This document shows positions 1-6,295 of a DNA stretch of 6,295 bases, one piece after another. The position numbers were made by a program, and so were the translations under genes. Each line of letters opens with the position of its first letter. Position 1 is the first letter of the stretch. The DNA is from a virus (lineage: Duplodnaviria; Heunggongvirae; Uroviricota; Caudoviricetes): the IMG/VR virus record IMGVR_UViG_2671180298_000001; one strand, given 5' to 3'. A model generated the notes under the pieces. That model did no database searches. It was not told the origin of the DNA and worked only from the letters and a program-made list of their open reading frames with translations.

Positions 1-1748
1 CGAATACTGATGCCGGAAGCAGCCTTTTTGGTCACAATCACCGTACAGTCGGTGATATTGCCTGCCCCCTGATTGCCTTTCTGGAAAATCTTAAACTCCA
101 GAGTGACGCTTCCCCTGCCACTCGGCATATCAATAACCGCACTGTAACTACCGGGAATGGCCCCTTTAGTTTCTCTGGATGCGATTAATACGCCGTTTTT
201 GCGAACTTCAAAACCATAACCCGTGTATCTTGTACCTCCCGGGTTATTACCACTTCCCGGATCGCTATACGCTATTCCGTTAAAGATAATGGGCGGAATA
301 ATAATCTGGCGGTCAAAGTTATGATCATCGCTGATGGTGACTGTAACCGTACCGTTTGGTGTTTCCGTGTTACCCCACGTACCGACTTTTTTCGGGAAGG
401 CTTTTGATACAGCTTTAACGAAATCCCCTCTGACCTGGGTCGCCTCCAGCATGCCCTTAATCGTACAGTTCTGGTTAATCGTGACATTGTTGAGCGTTCC
501 TGAGTTCGCATTCACACTACCACTGATATCCGCATTTTTAGCGGTCAGCTTTCCGTCTGATGTCAGGGAAAATACCGGAGGACTGCCACCGCTGGTAATG
601 GTGGGGGCCGTCAGGCGTTTCAGGAACACTTCATTCATGAATATCTGATCGCCCTGACCAACAAACATCGGCTTTGTGTTGCCATTCGCAGGATTAATCA
701 TCGCAATCCTGTCTGCTGCCAGCAGCACCTGACTCTGCATGCCGTCAGGGGTGTTCTCAATACCGGCACCGATACCCGCAATATAAAGGCGTCCGTCCTG
801 CATCTGCTGCAGCTTCACTGCCCACATGCTGTTCAGGTTATTATTTGTATCAACCTGAACCTTCTGTATCTGCTGGATTGCCGCACTCTGGTCTTCCAGT
901 TTCTTATTGACGGTCTGTGTTATTTCATTGCTGACATCCGTTATGGACGTCCTGATTTCAGTCAGGTCAGGCGCAAGCTGACCGTTATCAATCTGCGTCC
1001 ACAGCTCCTGAGCCAGATGGGTTTTCCCTATCTCGCCTTTGAAAAAATCCAGATAGCCTGATGCATCATCACTCGGCTGACCGACAGCCTCCACGAATGC
1101 CGATTTGCCAACGGTGTTCACACTGCGAACGTAAAAATAATAATCATGGCCCGGTTTGATATTGATACTGGCGGCTATCCAGTACAGTGCCGTACCAAGA
1201 TAACGCGCGCTGGTTTCAACCTGCCTGATATCCGCAATCCGTTTTTCCGAGAACCAGAACTCAAACTGTACCGTCGGGTCATAAACCGCAAGATGCGGCG
1301 TGGCGGTTATCTGAAAATAGCCCGGCGTCAGCTCAATCCGCGACGGCGCTGCCGGTGCGGCAATCCGGAACGATACCGACGCCGGATCGCCCTGCTGCCC
1401 CCACGCATTTACTGCCCGGACTGTCAGCCTGTAGTTCCCCAGAGCCAGTTGTGTGAAGCGGTAAGTGGTTTCCGTCGTCCGGGCCGTGCTGACCAGCCGC
1501 TCACGGCCGTCATCCGCTGCCACGGTCAGGCGAAGCAGGAAGCTCACGCCCTTCACCACCTTCGGCGTGTCCCAGCGCGCCAGCACCTGGTATTCCCCGC
1601 TGTCTGCGGTGACTTCTGCGGTCAGGTGCTGCACCGCTGGCGGCGTGACACCATTTACCGTGCCGCTCTGGTCGCCGTCAAAGTGCGCCCCGTTATCCAC
1701 GATGGCCTCTTTTTCCGGTAACCGGGGCAAATGATGAGTATCGTCCTG
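1..1748 (-). pseudogene. J: 3' portion (about 582 codons, running past the window start) of a lambda J-type host specificity / central tail fibre gene; no ATG start and no N-terminal half
   Basis: Minus-strand frame translated by hand is open from the codon after the V stop (1748) to position 1 with no stop. It reads ...[133 protein letters not shown]...[25 protein letters not shown]...[14 protein letters not shown], which matches my memory of the fibronectin-III-like middle region and C-terminal part of lambda gpJ. First in-frame ATG is only at 827..825. The ORF track misses it because there is no stop inside the window. Confidence 0.8.
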
Positions 1749-2492
1749 TTAACCTGCGGCGCTGACAGTCACCGCAGCCACAGCCACAAAATTCCCGTCA
1801 GCGGTCATGCCCACAATGCTGACACTGCCCTGCTTCACGCCTTTCACCGTGGCTACAAGCCCGTTCAGGGTCACCGTGGCAGTCTGTGGATCTGACGAAT
1901 GCACACTGATCGCTTTGTCACTGGCTCCGTCAGGTTTTACTGTAAAGGTCAGCGTGGTGGTTGCTCCCACTTTTACACTGGCAGATGCCGGTGCCACCGT
2001 CAGCCCGGTAACGCTCACTGTTTCAGTGCCTTCCTCTGCCAGATACGGACGCCCCACACCGCTGATTTTCACAGTGCGGGTCATCACGTCTTTTGAGGCA
2101 ATGGTTTTACCCAGTGAACTCAGCCAGCCACGGAAAACATCAACAGTGCCGTTGGGATATTTGATACGAAACGCGCAGACTTCACCGGAGTCGAACAACT
2201 GAACCAGTTTTTTCTGCCCGCTGTCACCCGGACGCCAGGCCAGCGTCGCCGAAGTATCACCGACTGATTTCTGCCCCTGGGTTGTCGTTTTCCAGTCTGC
2301 ATCTTCATCATCGAGATAAGTGTCATCTTCTGCATCAGCGGTCATTTCGCCAGGTTGTAGATCCTTCACCATCGCAAGACGCAACCAGTCAGTGTCCGAC
2401 AAAGGGTTCGCAAACGCATCGCCGTTGCCGGTATACATCCAGAACGTCGTTCCCGCACCTTTCGTTTTTGCCAGTGGATTTGGTGTGGTCAT
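1749..2492 (-). CDS. V: major tail tube protein, lambda gpV-like, with C-terminal Ig-like (Big_2) domain; 247 aa
   Basis: Protein MTTPNPLAKTKGAGTTFWMYTGNGDAFANPLSDTDW...YPNGTVDVFRGW... aligns along its length with remembered lambda gpV (246 aa). Start chosen at ATG 2492..2490, preceded by AAGGAGGTG with about 5 nt spacing; the track ORF (2567) begins 25 codons upstream inside the U gene. Stop TAA 1751..1749. Confidence 0.9.
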   Translation of the reverse strand: MTTPNPLAKTKGAGTTFWMYTGNGDAFANPLSDTDWLRLAMVKDLQPGEMTADAEDDTYLDDEDADWKTTTQGQKSVGDTSATLAWRPGDSGQKKLVQLFDSGEVCAFRIKYPNGTVDVFRGWLSSLGKTIASKDVMTRTVKISGVGRPYLAEEGTETVSVTGLTVAPASASVKVGATTTLTFTVKPDGASDKAISVHSSDPQTATVTLNGLVATVKGVKQGSVSIVGMTADGNFVAVAAVTVSAAG

Positions 2493-3490: not shown

Positions 3491-3766
3491 TTACTCAATA
3501 AAGATCATTGGCTTACCGTTAAAGCGTTCATGCCGTGTGACCGTCCAATGTTGTCCGTCATAAACAACGCGATCCCCGCGCCGTGGGCGGTATCCCGAAG
3601 AAAACACCACCAGAGAGACCGCAGGTCCGGACAAAGCATTCAGCTCTGCCAGTGTTTCTCCCGGGATCACAGTCATATCGACATCATTAATCGAGGCTGT
3701 CTTTCCCATCTTTCTGACCGTGATCGCATCCATACGCGCTGCCAGCCGGGAAAAGGGATCAGACAT
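3491..3766 (-). CDS. head-tail joining protein, lambda gpFII-like; 91 aa
   Basis: N-terminus MSDPFSRLAARMDAITVRKMGKTASI resembles lambda gpFII MADFDNLFDAAIARADETIRGYMGTSATI, and it sits directly upstream of Z. Start ATG 3766..3764 overlaps the stop of the preceding gene by 8 nt (translational coupling); no separate SD. Confidence 0.65.
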   Translation of the reverse strand: MSDPFSRLAARMDAITVRKMGKTASINDVDMTVIPGETLAELNALSGPAVSLVVFSSGYRPRRGDRVVYDGQHWTVTRHERFNGKPMIFIE

Positions 3767-4082
3767 TGAGTTTTACCGGCACTTCTTCTGCACTGGTTCC
3801 GGCATCTGCCCAGACAACCCCGACCAGCGGATCAGAGCCGCTGTTAGTCAGCTGAACTTTTCCGGACTTCAGATAAACCTTCTTACCCGTTTTCATGTCA
3901 TCCGTTTTCAGCTTAGGCAGCATAAACACACCTTCGGTCAGGCCGTCGCCTGTTTCACCCTGTGGAATATCGGTCAGCGCCACCGCAAAAACATCACCCA
4001 CCTGCACCAGGTCTCCGCTGCTGATGGCTGCACTGGCAACAATCGCCACCGTTTTTCCTTCTTCTACAAAATTCTTTGCCAT
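3759..4082 (-). CDS. small acidic phage head protein of the DUF2190 type (family often mislabelled as RecA/RadA recombinase in prophage annotations); 107 aa
   Basis: Protein MAKNFVEEGKTVAIVASAAISSGDLVQVGDVFAVALTDIPQGETGDGLTEGVFMLPK... Sits in the position lambda uses for D/FI, between capsid and FII. Start placed at ATG 4082..4080 with GGAG 6 nt upstream; the track start at 4127 lies inside the terminator hairpin region and is rejected. Confidence 0.6.
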   Translation of the reverse strand: MAKNFVEEGKTVAIVASAAISSGDLVQVGDVFAVALTDIPQGETGDGLTEGVFMLPKLKTDDMKTGKKVYLKSGKVQLTNSGSDPLVGVVWADAGTSAEEVPVKLNV

Positions 4083-4095
4083 AACTGTCTCCGCA

Positions 4096-4114
4096 CAGCC
4101 CCGTTCAGGGGCTG
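4096..4114 (-). other. perfect 7-bp GC-rich stem-loop (CAGCCCC-UGAAC-GGGGCUG on the transcript) ending 2 nt before the SD of the DUF2190 gene
   Basis: Plus strand 4096-4102 cagcccc and 4108-4114 ggggctg are exact reverse complements separated by 5 nt. No U-run follows in the transcript, so not an intrinsic terminator. Confidence 0.5.
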
Positions 4115-4125
4115 ATTTCAGGTAC

Positions 4126-4145
4126 AAAAAAAGCCCTTACGGGCC
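4126..4145 (-). terminator. candidate rho-independent terminator (probably partial) about 24 nt after the capsid stop
   Basis: Minus-strand transcript reads GGCCC-GUAA-GGGC followed by UUUUUUU (plus strand caaaaaaagcccttacgggcc). The stem is only 4-5 bp, so likely weak or attenuating. Confidence 0.4.
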
Positions 4146-4168
4146 ATCAGAGTTGTTGTCTGCGACGT

Positions 4169-6127
4169 TTACGCCGTACATTTCACCAGACCGCGGTGAT
4201 CAACTGGCGCGACACCGGCGTCAATACGCACTTTCGTTGTCACGCCATCCACACTGAAGCCCTCCATCTGATCAATATATGGCGTATCCACACCGTTGAG
4301 ATAAGCCACTTCAATCGTATCGGAGCCTTTTGACGCAGCCAGGTAGAAGGTGGTCTGGCTGTTATCATCAAGACGGGGCTCTGCAATAACGGTCGCAAAA
4401 TCTTTCACCGGGTTAATAATACCGGCGTTAATGTCAGCCCCCTTGACACTTGAGGAGCGAATGACCTGGTTAGCAACAGACTCCATCGCCGTCGGTACCA
4501 GTACGAACGCAGGACGAATATTCAGATGACGCTCCCCCTCTTTCTGAACGCGCATCAACTGGCGGGCTTTATCCAGCGATGCCACGTCCATTGCAGCGCT
4601 CTCCAGTACGTTTGCATGTTTCGCTTTATCGAACAGACTTACATTATCTGTGGAGATTTTCGGGTTAGACGTCAGAATGGCATAAACCAGATCGGCAATA
4701 GTGGATTTCGCCGCACGGCCCAGTTTCATCGGGACATCGGTCAGCATATTCAGATCATCATTGATAATGGCCTGACGGGTGATACTGAACAGCTCGCCAT
4801 AGGTCGCCAGTGCAATAGTGGCCTGTTTATCTCCGGTGGTGACGTATTTATATTCCGCCCCTTCACGCACCTGACGCAGAGCACTGAAGCCCCCCATACC
4901 CACACGATGGGCAATTTTAAAATCAGACAACTGACCTTTCCGCGTCCACTGTTCATAGGTTTCAGGGGCATCTTCCCAGCCCTGCAGAATGGCTTTGTTC
5001 GCAACATCCAGCAGAATATTACCGAAGTCAGACGTACTGTGTGTGAACGCCGCACCGACCATCTGCATCGGGTTATAACTGGAAACCCCAATACCCCGTT
5101 CAGTCAGTGACATACGGGCATATTCACGCAGGGTCATCCCGTTGTAGACATTATCACGTTCGGTTTTTTCAAATCCGGCACGCGCCATCAGCGCCTGGCG
5201 GATCCCGTCCCCCACAAAATTACCGTTTCCGGCATAAATATGAGCCGGGGTATTTTTATTGGATGGCGTGGACTCGCGCCCCATCTCGTTCAACAGCTTT
5301 TCGCGGGCCTGCTCCAGCGAACATTCAGGATCGGCAAGACACTGAGCCTGCAGCGTCTGATAACGCCCGCCAAACATGGCAAACAGATCATTAATACCGT
5401 TTACACGCGCTTTTTGCTCTGCCAGTACCTGCGCACGGATACTGTTTTCATCCACCACGGGTGCTGCTGCCTGCACTGGCGTCCGGGAGGCTGCAGGTTC
5501 ATCATCCTGTACGCGTGGAGCACTGTTGCGTGGCGGAGTAATCATGTTTCGAATGGATTCCGGCATCTTTTTAAATTCCTCTGTACGTTTTGACTGAATA
5601 CATGCCATTGCCTTAACGGCTGGCGTCACCTGATCAGCAAATCCCTGTGCCAGACATTCGGCACCGGACATCCAGGTCTCATCCGCCAGCATGGCAGCAA
5701 TTTCATCGGTGGTTTTCCCGGTTTTCTGTGCATAAGCGGGTAACAGAACCGCCTCAACCTTATCGAGCAGGTCGGCATAGGTGCGCATGTCCTCCGCATC
5801 ACCGCCCGTAAAGCCAAATGGTTTATGAATCATCATGAAGGTGTTTTCCGGCATAATGACCGGGTTTCCCACCATCGCAATGACCGACGCCATTGACGCC
5901 GCCACACCGTCGACATAAACGGTAATGGACGCACCATGTGTTTTCAGCGCATTAAAAATGGCGATGCCTTCAAAGACATCGCCACCCGGTGAATTAATAT
6001 GGAGATTAATGTGGGTGATATCGCCCAGTGCATTCAGATCACTGATAAACTGCTTCGCTGTAACACCCCAGAAACCAATCTCGTCATAAATATAAATATC
6101 CGCGTCACTCTGGTGACCAGCCTGCAT
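4169..6127 (-). CDS. prohead protease (ClpP / S14 family) fused via a scaffold-like linker to an HK97-fold major capsid protein; 652 aa from the chosen start
   Basis: N-terminal part has ClpP hallmarks: IYIYDEIG...INSPGGDV...VDGVAASMASVIAMVG (serine motif, Ser codon 5896..5894) and MMIHKPFGF (histidine, codon 5827..5825). Middle is a low-complexity, helix-prone linker (ENSIRAQVLAEQKARVNG...LEQAREKLLNEMG). C-terminal ~330 aa look like a phage major capsid protein. Start set at ATG 6127..6125 (MQAGHQSDADIYIYDE), 13 nt after the stop of the upstream gene; the track start at 6292 would overlap that gene. Confidence 0.85.
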   Translation of the reverse strand: MQAGHQSDADIYIYDEIGFWGVTAKQFISDLNALGDITHINLHINSPGGDVFEGIAIFNALKTHGASITVYVDGVAASMASVIAMVGNPVIMPENTFMMIHKPFGFTGGDAEDMRTYADLLDKVEAVLLPAYAQKTGKTTDEIAAMLADETWMSGAECLAQGFADQVTPAVKAMACIQSKRTEEFKKMPESIRNMITPPRNSAPRVQDDEPAASRTPVQAAAPVVDENSIRAQVLAEQKARVNGINDLFAMFGGRYQTLQAQCLADPECSLEQAREKLLNEMGRESTPSNKNTPAHIYAGNGNFVGDGIRQALMARAGFEKTERDNVYNGMTLREYARMSLTERGIGVSSYNPMQMVGAAFTHSTSDFGNILLDVANKAILQGWEDAPETYEQWTRKGQLSDFKIAHRVGMGGFSALRQVREGAEYKYVTTGDKQATIALATYGELFSITRQAIINDDLNMLTDVPMKLGRAAKSTIADLVYAILTSNPKISTDNVSLFDKAKHANVLESAAMDVASLDKARQLMRVQKEGERHLNIRPAFVLVPTAMESVANQVIRSSSVKGADINAGIINPVKDFATVIAEPRLDDNSQTTFYLAASKGSDTIEVAYLNGVDTPYIDQMEGFSVDGVTTKVRIDAGVAPVDHRGLVKCTA

Positions 6128-6140
6128 CCTGAACCAGGAA

Positions 6141-6295
6141 TTATTCTTCGGACTGGTCGTCGGTGTGCTGCGGCTCCTGTCGTTTCGTTGCGGCACTGCT
6201 GCCTCCTTTATCACTGGCCGGATCGGTATCAAATACCAGATCCAGCTTGCGGTTTTCATCAATTTCGGCCTTGCGCTGAGAGATCCCCTCATAAT
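6141..6295 (-). CDS. 3' end of upstream gene, probably the portal protein (partial, continues beyond window end)
   Basis: A different minus frame is open from the window edge to TAA at 6143..6141 and reads ...YEGISQRKAEIDENRKLDLVFDTDPASDKGGSSAATKRQEPQHTDDQSEE*, a hydrophilic acidic tail typical of a real C-terminus. The third frame has a stop at 6291..6289. Portal identity is inferred from the conserved portal-protease-capsid gene order only. Confidence 0.5.
   Translation of the reverse strand, partial: YEGISQRKAEIDENRKLDLVFDTDPASDKGGSSAATKRQEPQHTDDQSEE

What the first reader, a model, noticed from the sequence alone, without database searches (positions are those of the whole stretch)
4169..6127. 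Single polypeptide combining ClpP-type protease, scaffold-like linker and major capsid protein
Protease, scaffolding and capsid functions that lambda and HK97 split over two or three genes are one ORF here. The ClpP catalytic serine and histidine motifs are intact, suggesting the N-terminal ~340 residues are removed by self-processing during prohead maturation. The cleavage site cannot be read from sequence alone.
Basis: partly seen in the sequence, partly recalled or inferred. Interest (0 to 1): 0.45.

Follow-up and report, generated by a model that had tools for sequence, protein, structure and literature searches.

The report
Known phage protease–scaffold–capsid fusion gene
This is the already-described "tripartite" head gene of Gifsy-2-type lambdoid prophages, with protease, scaffold and capsid protein in one reading frame; about two in five complete E. 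coli genomes match it, so it is real but ordinary, apart from a conserved internal start signal that may yield a second, protease-less product.

Summary
The minus strand carries one intact ORF ending at 4169. It has a ClpP-fold serine protease at the N-terminus, a Pro/Ala-rich linker with a short helical scaffold-like segment, and an HK97-fold major capsid protein at the C-terminus.

It is not new. It scores 985 bits (cut-off 475) on NCBIfam NF045540, [quoted passage not shown]. It is 100% identical to the phage phi458 protein and 70% identical to the Gifsy-2 "tripartite capsid gene" product (Effantin et al. 2010). It matches 2,125 of 5,426 complete E. coli genomes.

Two corrections:
- **Start codon.** The start is most likely GTG 6196 (AAGGAGG five bases upstream, 675 aa), not ATG 6127.
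- **Second product.** The gene probably makes two products. An invariant ATG (Met211, 5566-5564) lies 10 nt after an invariant AGGA that is held at a synonymous site, in one of the least-structured mRNA stretches of the gene, across 26 diverged homologues. This looks like a nested start for a 465-aa scaffold–capsid protein, as with lambda C/Nu3. It is inferred, not shown.

The cleavage site remains undetermined. Verdict: already known, low interest.

The parts
4169..6196 (-). Full-length ORF (675 codons plus stop): ClpP-like prohead protease, scaffold-like region and major capsid protein in one frame. The start is GTG 6196-6194.
   Evidence: RefSeq annotates the same coordinates in E. coli A14 (WP_097292405).
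6202..6208 (-). Shine-Dalgarno AAGGAGG, five bases upstream of GTG 6196. It lies inside the 3' end of the portal gene.
   Evidence: The same motif plus GTG is present in mEp043, and GGAGG plus ATG in the Pseudomonas homologue.
6141..6295 (-). 3' end of the portal gene in another frame (stop TAA 6143-6141). It overlaps the fusion ORF by 56 nt.
   Evidence: sequence; annotation of identical loci.
5612..6139 (-). ClpP-fold serine protease domain, about residues 20-195 of the 675-aa form.
   Evidence: Pfam CLP_protease; NF045542, "head maturation protease, ClpP-related", 216 bits against cut-off 120; PDB sequence hits to ClpP; AlphaFold plus Foldseek.
5894..5896 (-).
   Evidence: Aligns with the ClpP active-site Ser. 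Invariant in 28 homologues.
5825..5827 (-). Catalytic His124, within MMIHKP.
   Evidence: Aligns with the ClpP IHQP His. Invariant.
5678..5680 (-). Glu173, at the position that I take, from my knowledge of the ClpP R-D motif, to be the catalytic Asp. The likely third triad member is therefore Glu rather than Asp.
   Evidence: Alignment (query ...ADETWMS against ClpP ...ERDNWMS). Invariant. Its role is inferred.
5577..5580 (-). Invariant AGGA spanning codons 206-207, 10 nt upstream of ATG 5566. Candidate internal Shine-Dalgarno.
   Evidence: The third base of codon 206 is G in 26 of 26 representatives although the residue varies (E/Q/K). Other E/Q/K columns have G in 19-85%. Only 2 of 539 codon columns have an invariant third base, and both lie here.
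5564..5566 (-). Invariant in-frame ATG (Met211, followed by invariant Pro). Candidate nested start of a 465-aa scaffold-capsid product.
   Evidence: It is the only one of 11 conserved Met codons with an SD-like motif upstream in all representatives, and it sits in the least-structured roughly 2.5% of mRNA windows.
5462..5566 (-). Pro/Ala/Gln-rich linker of variable length and sequence (residues 211-245), predicted disordered.
   Evidence: Alignments; pLDDT below 50.
5276..5449 (-). Scaffold-like helical segment (residues about 250-307, three helices).
   Evidence: pLDDT 75-88 in both models. No Pfam family. The scaffold function is inferred from position and from the Gifsy-2 and MD8 literature.
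5228..5269 (-). Low-confidence loop (residues 310-323, TPSNKNTPAHIYAG) between the helical segment and the capsid fold. One candidate region for maturation cleavage.
   Evidence: pLDDT below 50. Gifsy-2 has an insertion here. The cleavage itself is not shown.
4172..5227 (-). HK97-fold major capsid protein region (residues 324-675). The Pfam Phage_capsid_4 core maps to 4181-5074.
   Evidence: profile hits to Mu-gpT-type capsid chains 8rkc and 9jod; AlphaFold pLDDT mostly 80-94, with Foldseek hits to encapsulins and phage capsids.
4132..4145 (-). GC hairpin followed by a T-run just after the stop: a terminator-like site.
   Evidence: A rho-independent terminator is annotated at the equivalent place in mEp460.
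3759..4082 (-). Downstream head decoration/cement protein gene (107 aa, DUF2190/Phage_cement_2). It belongs to the same head module.
   Evidence: Pfam; PHROG 122, "head decoration"; 61% identical to the Gifsy-2 neighbour.

Best explanation
The ORF at 4169-6196 (minus strand) is the composite head gene of a Gifsy-2/mEp460/cdtI-type lambdoid prophage of E. coli.

Its product carries three parts:
- a ClpP-fold serine protease (Ser101, His124, probably Glu173);
- a disordered linker followed by a short helical scaffold-like segment;
- an HK97-fold major capsid protein related to Mu gpT.

By analogy with Gifsy-2, HK97 and lambda, the capsid domains assemble a T=7 procapsid on the portal, with the scaffold and protease parts facing inward. 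The tethered protease then digests everything N-terminal to the capsid domain. The shell expands during DNA packaging, and the downstream decoration protein binds the expanded shell.

Shown here: the ORF, the three folds, the catalytic residues, family membership, gene order and distribution. Inferred: assembly, self-cleavage and the cleavage position.

I add one further inference. Translation probably also starts at the conserved internal ATG (Met211, 5566-5564). That would give a 465-aa scaffold-capsid protein organised like HK97 gp5 (delta domain plus capsid protein). The full-length protease-bearing form and the protease-less form would then co-assemble, as with the nested lambda C/Nu3 and herpesvirus UL26/UL26.5 pairs.
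For: **Identity**
- Pfam CLP_protease and Phage_capsid_4.
- NF045540, 985 bits against cut-off 475. PHROG 133, full length.
- 100% identity to the phage phi458 protein, and 99% or more DNA identity to 15 phage records including cdtI, mEp460, Ayreon and Tritos.
- 70% identity to the Gifsy-2 product, with the same gene order: portal, fusion, decoration, gpZ, gpU, gpV.
- RefSeq product name.

**Folds**
- ClpP.
- HK97.

**Literature**
- Gifsy-2 has trimeric decoration at the 3-fold axes (PMC8538268).
- The same single-gene protease-scaffold-capsid arrangement is described for Pseudomonas phage MD8 (PMC8508860).

**Nested start**
- Invariant ATG-CCN with invariant AGGA 10 nt upstream, across enteric, Vibrio and Pseudomonas homologues of 50-100% identity.
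- Synonymous-site constraint is confined to this spot.
- The region is among the least structured 0.5-11% of windows in each of 26 homologues, median 2.5%.
- It is unique among 11 conserved Met codons.
- Homology to other protease-capsid fusion families (phrog_4523, NF045541) begins at residues 209-220, so Met211 sits at a module boundary.
Against: - No experiment on this protein was available to me. I could not obtain Effantin et al. 2010, so the processing details rest on citations and on my recollection of its abstract.
- The cleavage site is unknown. The AlphaFold model shows a contiguous folded unit from residue 324, while alignment to solved Mu-gpT-type capsids suggests a core starting near residue 390. 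Mature sizes of about 285 to 350 residues are therefore all possible.
- For the nested start, the AGGA-to-ATG spacing of 10 nt is long, and the motif overlaps conserved acidic codons.
- The only stand-alone "MP..." gene whose DNA I could inspect (Vibrio astriarenae) is a frameshift-split copy, not a natural separate gene.
- The upstream start has the stronger SD, so the ratio of the two products cannot be predicted.
Confidence: 0.9

Rival explanations
1. Strictly one product. Every capsid subunit is made as the full 675-aa protease-scaffold-capsid chain. The conserved Met211-Pro212 and upstream AGGA serve another purpose, such as a protein-level motif (a protease cleavage or docking site) or an SD-like ribosomal pause that helps the protease domain fold before the linker emerges.
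For: - The full-length start has the strongest SD in the gene.
- Met-Pro and the flanking S-K-R-x-[EQK]-[ED]-[FY] residues are conserved as amino acids, so part of the signal is at protein level.
- The SD spacing of 10 nt is suboptimal.
- No natural stand-alone gene starting at this Met was verified.
Against: - A protein-level motif does not explain why the third base of codon 206 stays G while its amino acid changes between E, Q and K. It also does not explain why the only two invariant third positions in 539 codons lie here.
- A pause site does not need an invariant ATG at a fixed distance, or a locally unstructured mRNA.
- Nested scaffold starts are documented for protease-scaffold genes in lambda, herpes simplex virus type 1 and the archaeal virus HFTV1 (bioRxiv 10.64898/2026.09.13.751334).
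Confidence: 0.3
2. The long ORF is an artefact or a pseudogene: two or three neighbouring genes (protease, scaffold, capsid) joined by a sequencing error or by recent loss of stop codons in a decaying prophage.
For: - The prophage in this window does look damaged elsewhere. The tail genes between gpV and the middle of gpJ are missing.
- Split copies of the gene exist: a frameshift in Vibrio astriarenae and an apparent IS629 insertion in VT1-Sakai.
Against: - The same uninterrupted frame is present in 2,016 complete E. coli genomes at 80% coverage or more.
- It is present in 80 phage records at 80% coverage or more, some listing a laboratory E. coli strain as host (phi458 on MC1061, PhiR55_1 on E. 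coli C, Ayreon on K12).
- It is present in homologues down to about 50% identity in Salmonella, Pseudomonas, Vibrio, Serratia and Yersinia.
- In a scan of 1.84 billion representatives, most of the 150 best hits are 620-790 aa with the capsid module starting at about 200-270.
- A curated NCBIfam model exists for the fusion.
Confidence: 0.01
3. The N-terminal domain is a cellular-type ClpP subunit carried by the phage, acting with host ClpX/ClpA on host or phage substrates rather than as a capsid maturation protease.
For: Best PDB sequence and fold matches are cellular ClpP proteins. Many database entries name it "Clp protease ClpP".
Against: - It fails every ClpP equivalog threshold (for example TIGR00493, 58.6 bits against 308.6) but passes NF045542, "head maturation protease, ClpP-related" (216 bits against 120).
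- It is covalently joined to the capsid protein and sits between the portal and decoration genes.
- More than 1,500 phage records match the protein in a tblastn search. In the sampled rows the match is to the protease part and the gene is typically annotated Clp, prohead or head maturation protease, in several rows next to a portal gene.
Confidence: 0.02

Closest known systems
Salmonella phage Gifsy-2 tripartite capsid gene (Clp protease CDS, NC_010393 22471-24561, protein YP_001700678.1; Effantin et al. 2010, Virology 402:355)
   Same: - 70% identity over 668 residues, rising to about 90% in the capsid part.
- Same three-part order.
- Same neighbours: portal upstream with an overlapping end, a DUF2190 decoration gene downstream, then gpZ, gpU and gpV.
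- Same conserved internal AGGA-N10-ATG.
   Different: - The N-terminal 20-30 residues and the Pro/Ala-rich linker differ.
- Gifsy-2 has an 8-residue insertion before the capsid fold.
- The host differs (Salmonella rather than E. coli).
- The residue at the window's ATG 6127 is Ile in Gifsy-2.
NCBIfam NF045540 (scaf_prot_MCP1) / PHROG 133; E. coli phages phi458, cdtI, mEp460, Ayreon and Tritos
   Same: Member of the family: 985 bits against cut-off 475, full-length match. Protein identical to phi458, and DNA 99% or more identical to 15 phage records including cdtI, mEp460, Ayreon and Tritos.
   Different: None of substance. Public annotations disagree on the start (652, 675 or 707 aa) and on the name (protease, scaffold, Nu3, major head protein, even "terminase protein" in mEp043).
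Pseudomonas phage MD8 gp5 and relatives (PMC8508860)
   Same: A single gene of 693 aa with ClpP-like protease, scaffold-like middle and HK97/Mu-like capsid domains. Pseudomonas homologues are 54-58% identical to the window protein.
   Different: Different host and GC content. The MD8 paper treats it as one gene. My keyword search of it (maturation protease, ClpP, fused, scaffolding) turned up no mention of an internal start, but I did not search for that term.
Lambda gpC/gpNu3 (nested protease-scaffold) plus gpE and gpD
   Same: The protease and scaffold are in one frame, with an internal in-frame start that has its own SD and gives the scaffold alone. The head has a cementing decoration protein. 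The tail genes Z, U and V are lambda-like.
   Different: In lambda the capsid protein gpE is a separate gene. From my own knowledge, gpC is usually placed with the SppA/S49 peptidases. Here the SppA model matches only weakly (22 bits against 155) and the ClpP-related head-maturation model matches strongly. The decoration protein here is DUF2190/Phage_cement_2, not a gpD family hit.
HK97 gp4 protease plus gp5 (delta domain fused to the capsid protein)
   Same: The scaffold function is covalently attached to the N-terminus of an HK97-fold capsid protein and is removed by a phage protease. The predicted Met211 product would carry about 100-113 residues ahead of the capsid fold, close to the 102-residue HK97 delta domain.
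   Different: In HK97 the protease is a separate gene. From my own knowledge it belongs to a different fold family (S78, herpesvirus-like). No match to that family was found here. From my own knowledge HK97 has no decoration protein and uses covalent chainmail instead.

Membership tests
NCBIfam NF045540, ClpP-like prohead protease/major capsid protein fusion protein | Whole-protein HMM score above the curated cut-off, with an end-to-end match | tested here: met
   985.1 bits against cut-off 475. Residues 32-674 match profile positions 2-651 of 652.
NCBIfam NF045540, ClpP-like prohead protease/major capsid protein fusion protein | N-terminal ClpP-fold domain with the catalytic Ser and His present | tested here: met
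   Pfam CLP_protease E 6.5e-36. Ser101 and His124 align with the ClpP active site and are invariant. Foldseek hits ClpP with probability 1.0.
NCBIfam NF045540, ClpP-like prohead protease/major capsid protein fusion protein | C-terminal HK97-fold major capsid domain | tested here: met
   Phage_capsid_4 E 7.4e-55. Profile hits to Mu-gpT-type capsid chains, E about 9e-10. Model pLDDT 78, matching encapsulins and phage capsids.
NCBIfam NF045540, ClpP-like prohead protease/major capsid protein fusion protein | Position in a phage head module, after the portal gene and before the decoration and head-tail genes | tested here: met
   Window ORFs and Pfam hits. Identical organisation in E. coli A14, mEp460 and Gifsy-2.
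NCBIfam NF045540, ClpP-like prohead protease/major capsid protein fusion protein | Proteolytic removal of the protease and scaffold parts during prohead maturation | not testable with these tools
   Rests on the Gifsy-2 precedent as cited and on analogy with HK97 and lambda.
Cellular ClpP (MEROPS S14; TIGR00493) | Equivalog HMM score above cut-off | tested here: not met
   58.6 bits against 308.6. All other ClpP equivalog and subfamily models are also far below cut-off.
Cellular ClpP (MEROPS S14; TIGR00493) | Ser-His-Asp catalytic triad | tested here: inconclusive
   Ser and His are present. The position that I take, from my knowledge of the ClpP R-D motif, to be the catalytic Asp carries an invariant Glu173, with Asp172 adjacent.
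Nested protease/scaffold genes (lambda C/Nu3 type) | In-frame internal start with its own ribosome-binding site, giving a product without the protease | tested here: inconclusive
   The sequence signature is strong: an invariant ATG, AGGA held at a synonymous site, unstructured mRNA, and uniqueness among 11 conserved Met codons. No expression data exist.
Nested protease/scaffold genes (lambda C/Nu3 type) | Protease of the SppA/S49 type (the lambda gpC assignment is from my own knowledge), with a separate capsid gene | tested here: not met
   The SppA domain model scores 22.3 bits against 155. The capsid protein is in the same ORF.
HK97-type head module (separate protease gene plus delta-domain capsid protein) | Separate protease gene, of the S78/herpesvirus-like fold (fold assignment from my own knowledge) | tested here: not met
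   No such family appears among the Pfam, NCBIfam or PHROG hits. The protease is ClpP-fold and fused to the capsid protein.

The most novel reading that the evidence does not exclude
The gene is a three-in-one gene with a nested second cistron. Besides the 675-aa protease-scaffold-capsid chain, ribosomes would start at the conserved internal site (AGGA 5580-5577, ATG 5566-5564) and make a 465-aa scaffold-capsid protein. Procapsids would then be built from a mixture of the two, and the ratio of the two starts would set the protease dose per head. This would extend the nested protease/scaffold strategy of lambda, herpesviruses and HFTV1 to a gene that also contains the capsid protein. It would apply to the whole, very large family. 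I could not check whether Effantin et al. 2010 already proposed this.
Probability: 0.6. Interest if true: 0.35.

Novelty: already known. Interest (0 to 1): 0.12.

Why it matters
As stated, the finding adds nothing new. The fusion has been published (Gifsy-2 in 2010, MD8 in 2021), has a curated NCBI family and product name, and occurs in roughly 39% of complete E. coli genomes.

Its practical value is in annotation. Public records give this gene three different starts and at least six different names, including "terminase protein". The evidence here favours GTG 6196.

The internal-start signature is a cheap, testable hypothesis about how these phages set the protease-to-capsid ratio. If confirmed, thousands of genomes should annotate a second product.

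Tried and rejected
- **Papers not held.** Effantin et al. 2010 (by PubMed id) and Duda et al. 2013 (PMC3709472) were not in the library. Details of Gifsy-2 processing therefore come only from citing papers and from my recollection of the abstract.
- **First structure model.** The full-length AlphaFold model (28 sequences) was good for the protease and the central helices but useless for the capsid part (pLDDT below 50). A second model of residues 211-675, with a third clade added to the alignment, gave pLDDT 78.
- **Search for natural stand-alone scaffold-capsid genes starting at the Met211 position.** The representative library holds several proteins of 440-470 aa that begin "MP..." at exactly that position.
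  - No DNA was found for P0256.
  - Viral and genome scans for P0250 returned only fusions of about 50% identity.
  - P0250's own contig shows a frameshift-split fusion, not an ancestral two-gene state.
  - This line therefore does not support the nested start on its own. It only shows that a gene caller picks that ATG.
- **Frameshift site.** I considered a programmed -1 frameshift at TTT AAA AAG upstream of ATG 5566. I rejected it because the heptamer is absent in Gifsy-2 and the Pseudomonas homologues.
- **Longer start.** I considered ATG 6292 (707 aa). I rejected it because there is no SD, it lies deep inside the portal gene, and homologue N-termini align at the GTG 6196 position.
- **Promoters.** The promoter scan found none in 3700-6295.
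Full report

Yes. The minus strand holds one open frame from the stop TAA (4171-4169) to beyond the right end of the window.

- CLP_protease at residues 23-168 (E 6.5e-36).
- Phage_capsid_4 at residues 352-649 (E 7.4e-55).

The 675-aa form scores 985 bits on NCBIfam NF045540, [quoted passage not shown] (cut-off 475). It also passes NF045542, "head maturation protease, ClpP-related", at 216 bits against 120. PHROG 133 matches it end to end.

Codon 5896-5894 is the Ser of GVAASMAS, and 5827-5825 is the His of MMIHKP. Both align with the ClpP active site and are invariant in 28 homologues. The position that I take, from my knowledge of the ClpP R-D motif, to be the catalytic Asp carries an invariant Glu (5680-5678).

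**2. Where does the gene start?**

Probably at GTG 6196, not ATG 6127.
- AAGGAGG lies at 6208-6202, five bases before the GTG. This is the only strong Shine-Dalgarno motif in the frame, and ATG 6127 has none.
- In Gifsy-2 and in a Pseudomonas phage homologue, the residue at 6127 is Ile.
- The Ser-Trp pair just upstream (6139-6134) is invariant. That pair lies beyond the portal stop (6143-6141), so overlap with the portal gene cannot explain its conservation.
- mEp043 has the same SD plus GTG, and the Pseudomonas gene has GGAGG plus ATG at the homologous place.
- RefSeq annotates the 675-aa form. The GenBank records of mEp460 and mEp043 use the shorter form.

**3. Structure**

A full-length AlphaFold model built from 28 sequences was confident only for two parts: residues about 20-195, and helices at 250-307. 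Foldseek placed the first part firmly with ClpP (probability 1.0, TM about 0.75 on the target).

A second model covered residues 211-675, with a third clade added to the alignment. It reached mean pLDDT 78 and showed the following:
- Residues 211-245: disordered Pro/Ala-rich linker.
- About 250-307: three helices.
- Residues 310-323: a low-confidence loop.
- From 324 onward: a contiguous fold.

The best structural matches of that fold are encapsulins and phage capsid proteins, which means the HK97 fold. A profile of 19 diverse homologues finds the solved Mu-gpT-type capsid proteins 8rkc/8rkx and 9jod (E about 1e-9). The tripartite reading therefore holds at fold level.

**4. What is it, and is it new?**

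It is not new.
- The protein is 100% identical to that of phage phi458. The DNA is 99% or more identical to 15 phage records, including cdtI, mEp460, Ayreon and Tritos.
- It is 70% identical over 668 residues to the product of the Gifsy-2 gene. The neighbouring genes are the same.
[quoted passage not shown]" (Effantin et al. 2010). [quoted passage not shown]
- The same single-gene arrangement was described for Pseudomonas phage MD8 (PMC8508860).
- "Major capsid and protease fusion protein" is a routine annotation term for actinobacteriophages.
- The gene region matches 2,125 of 5,426 complete E. coli genomes, 2,016 of them over at least 80% of its length. RefSeq already names it as the fusion.
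- A scan of 1.84 billion representative proteins with residues 211-675 gave 10,629 hits. Most of the best ones are 620-790 aa with the match beginning at about 200-270, so the fused form is the rule.

**5. How it most likely works**

Shown: the ORF, the folds, the catalytic residues, family membership and gene context.

Inferred from Gifsy-2, HK97 and lambda: the capsid domains assemble a procapsid with the scaffold and protease parts inside. The protease then removes everything N-terminal to the capsid fold. The shell expands, and the DUF2190/Phage_cement_2 protein encoded just downstream (3759-4082) decorates it. A hairpin followed by a T-run after the stop (4145-4132) resembles the terminator annotated in mEp460.

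The cleavage site cannot be fixed. The loop at residues 310-323 is one candidate. Alignment to stand-alone Mu-gpT-type capsids puts the core start near residue 390.

**6. An addition: a probable nested start**

Met211 (ATG 5566-5564) and the following Pro are invariant in every homologue examined, from 100% down to about 50% identity.

Ten bases upstream lies AGGA, formed by codons 206-207 (xAG GAx). The amino acids there vary (E/Q/K, then E/D), yet the third base of codon 206 is G in all 26 representatives (clustered below 93% identity). In the 14 other columns that hold only E, Q or K, the G fraction is 0.19-0.85.

Of 539 codon columns, only two have an invariant third base: codons 203 and 206. 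The block 202-213 has the highest third-position conservation in the gene.

The 51-nt window around this ATG is among the least-structured 0.5-11% of in-frame windows in each homologue, with a median of 2.5%. In this window it folds at -1.4 kcal/mol, against a gene mean of -11.1.

Among 11 conserved Met codons, only Met211 has an SD-like motif upstream. It does so in 26 of 26 representatives, against 0-8% for the others, which sit at ordinary structure ranks of 0.55-0.87.

Homology to other protease-capsid fusion families also begins at residues 209-220.

Together these are the marks of a translation initiation region. It would give a 465-aa scaffold-capsid protein built like HK97 gp5, alongside the full-length protease-bearing chain. 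This parallels the nested protease/scaffold pairs of lambda, herpes simplex virus type 1 and the archaeal virus HFTV1.

Weak points:
- The 10-nt spacing is long.
- The motif overlaps conserved codons.
- There are no expression data.
- The only stand-alone "MP..." gene whose DNA I could inspect is a frameshift-split copy.
- I could not read the 2010 paper to see whether this had already been considered.

**7. Verdict**

The start coordinate is corrected, and "single polypeptide" is probably incomplete. Novelty: already known. Interest: low.

Noticed in passing
window 1-1749 (junction at about 1715-1749): Window 1-1720 (minus strand, open frame running off the left end) is the C-terminal 573 or so codons of a lambda-type tail tip protein gpJ. 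It is 100% identical to gpJ in many E. coli genomes. It abuts the stop of the gpV-like major tail gene (1749) and is in frame with it, separated by that one stop codon. In intact relatives, G, T and the tape measure follow V; the remaining lambda-type tail genes up to J are expected from lambda gene order. The tail genes between V and mid-J are therefore missing here. None of the 5,426 complete E. coli genomes carries this junction. It is either a tail-defective deletion prophage or an assembly chimera.
   Followed up: partly
Enterobacteria phage VT1-Sakai AP000400.1 23257-26655 (hit H19): The VT1-Sakai homologue of the fusion gene (78% DNA identity) matches in two pieces about 1.3 kb further apart than expected, with IS629 and a transposase annotated between them. 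The gene therefore appears to be interrupted by an insertion sequence in that Shiga-toxin prophage.
   Followed up: no
L157 2357-4332 (Vibrio astriarenae BBMQ01000056.1): A copy of the fusion gene is split by a frameshift into a 201-aa ClpP-like gene and a 443-aa scaffold-capsid gene. The gene caller started the second gene exactly at the conserved internal Met-Pro, which is preceded by AAGGA. The neighbourhood looks like a decayed prophage.
   Followed up: yes
window 4169-6292 and public records of the same gene: Annotation of this one gene is inconsistent across databases. Lengths of 652, 675 and 707 aa are given. Names include protease, protease/scaffold, head-tail preconnector Nu3 or C, major head protein, Clp protease ClpP and, in mEp043, "terminase protein". 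Some database entries chimerise it with the portal, terminase or tail genes at 750-1,159 aa.
   Followed up: partly
window 3491-3766 (minus strand): The 91-aa gene after the decoration gene hits Pfam "Gifsy-2" (PF13856, described as an ATP-binding sugar transporter) and weakly hits Phage_attach. RefSeq calls it "DNA breaking-rejoining protein" and PHROG calls it a minor tail protein. By position it is most likely a head-tail connector, so the database names look wrong.
   Followed up: no
E. coli proteins P0408-P0500: E. coli carries a second clade of the same fusion family (629-641 aa). On the scaffold-capsid module it is 53-56% identical to the window protein (P0408, P0446). It has thousands of database members. 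Together with the up to 6 matching places per genome, this suggests one genome can hold several diverged copies.
   Followed up: no
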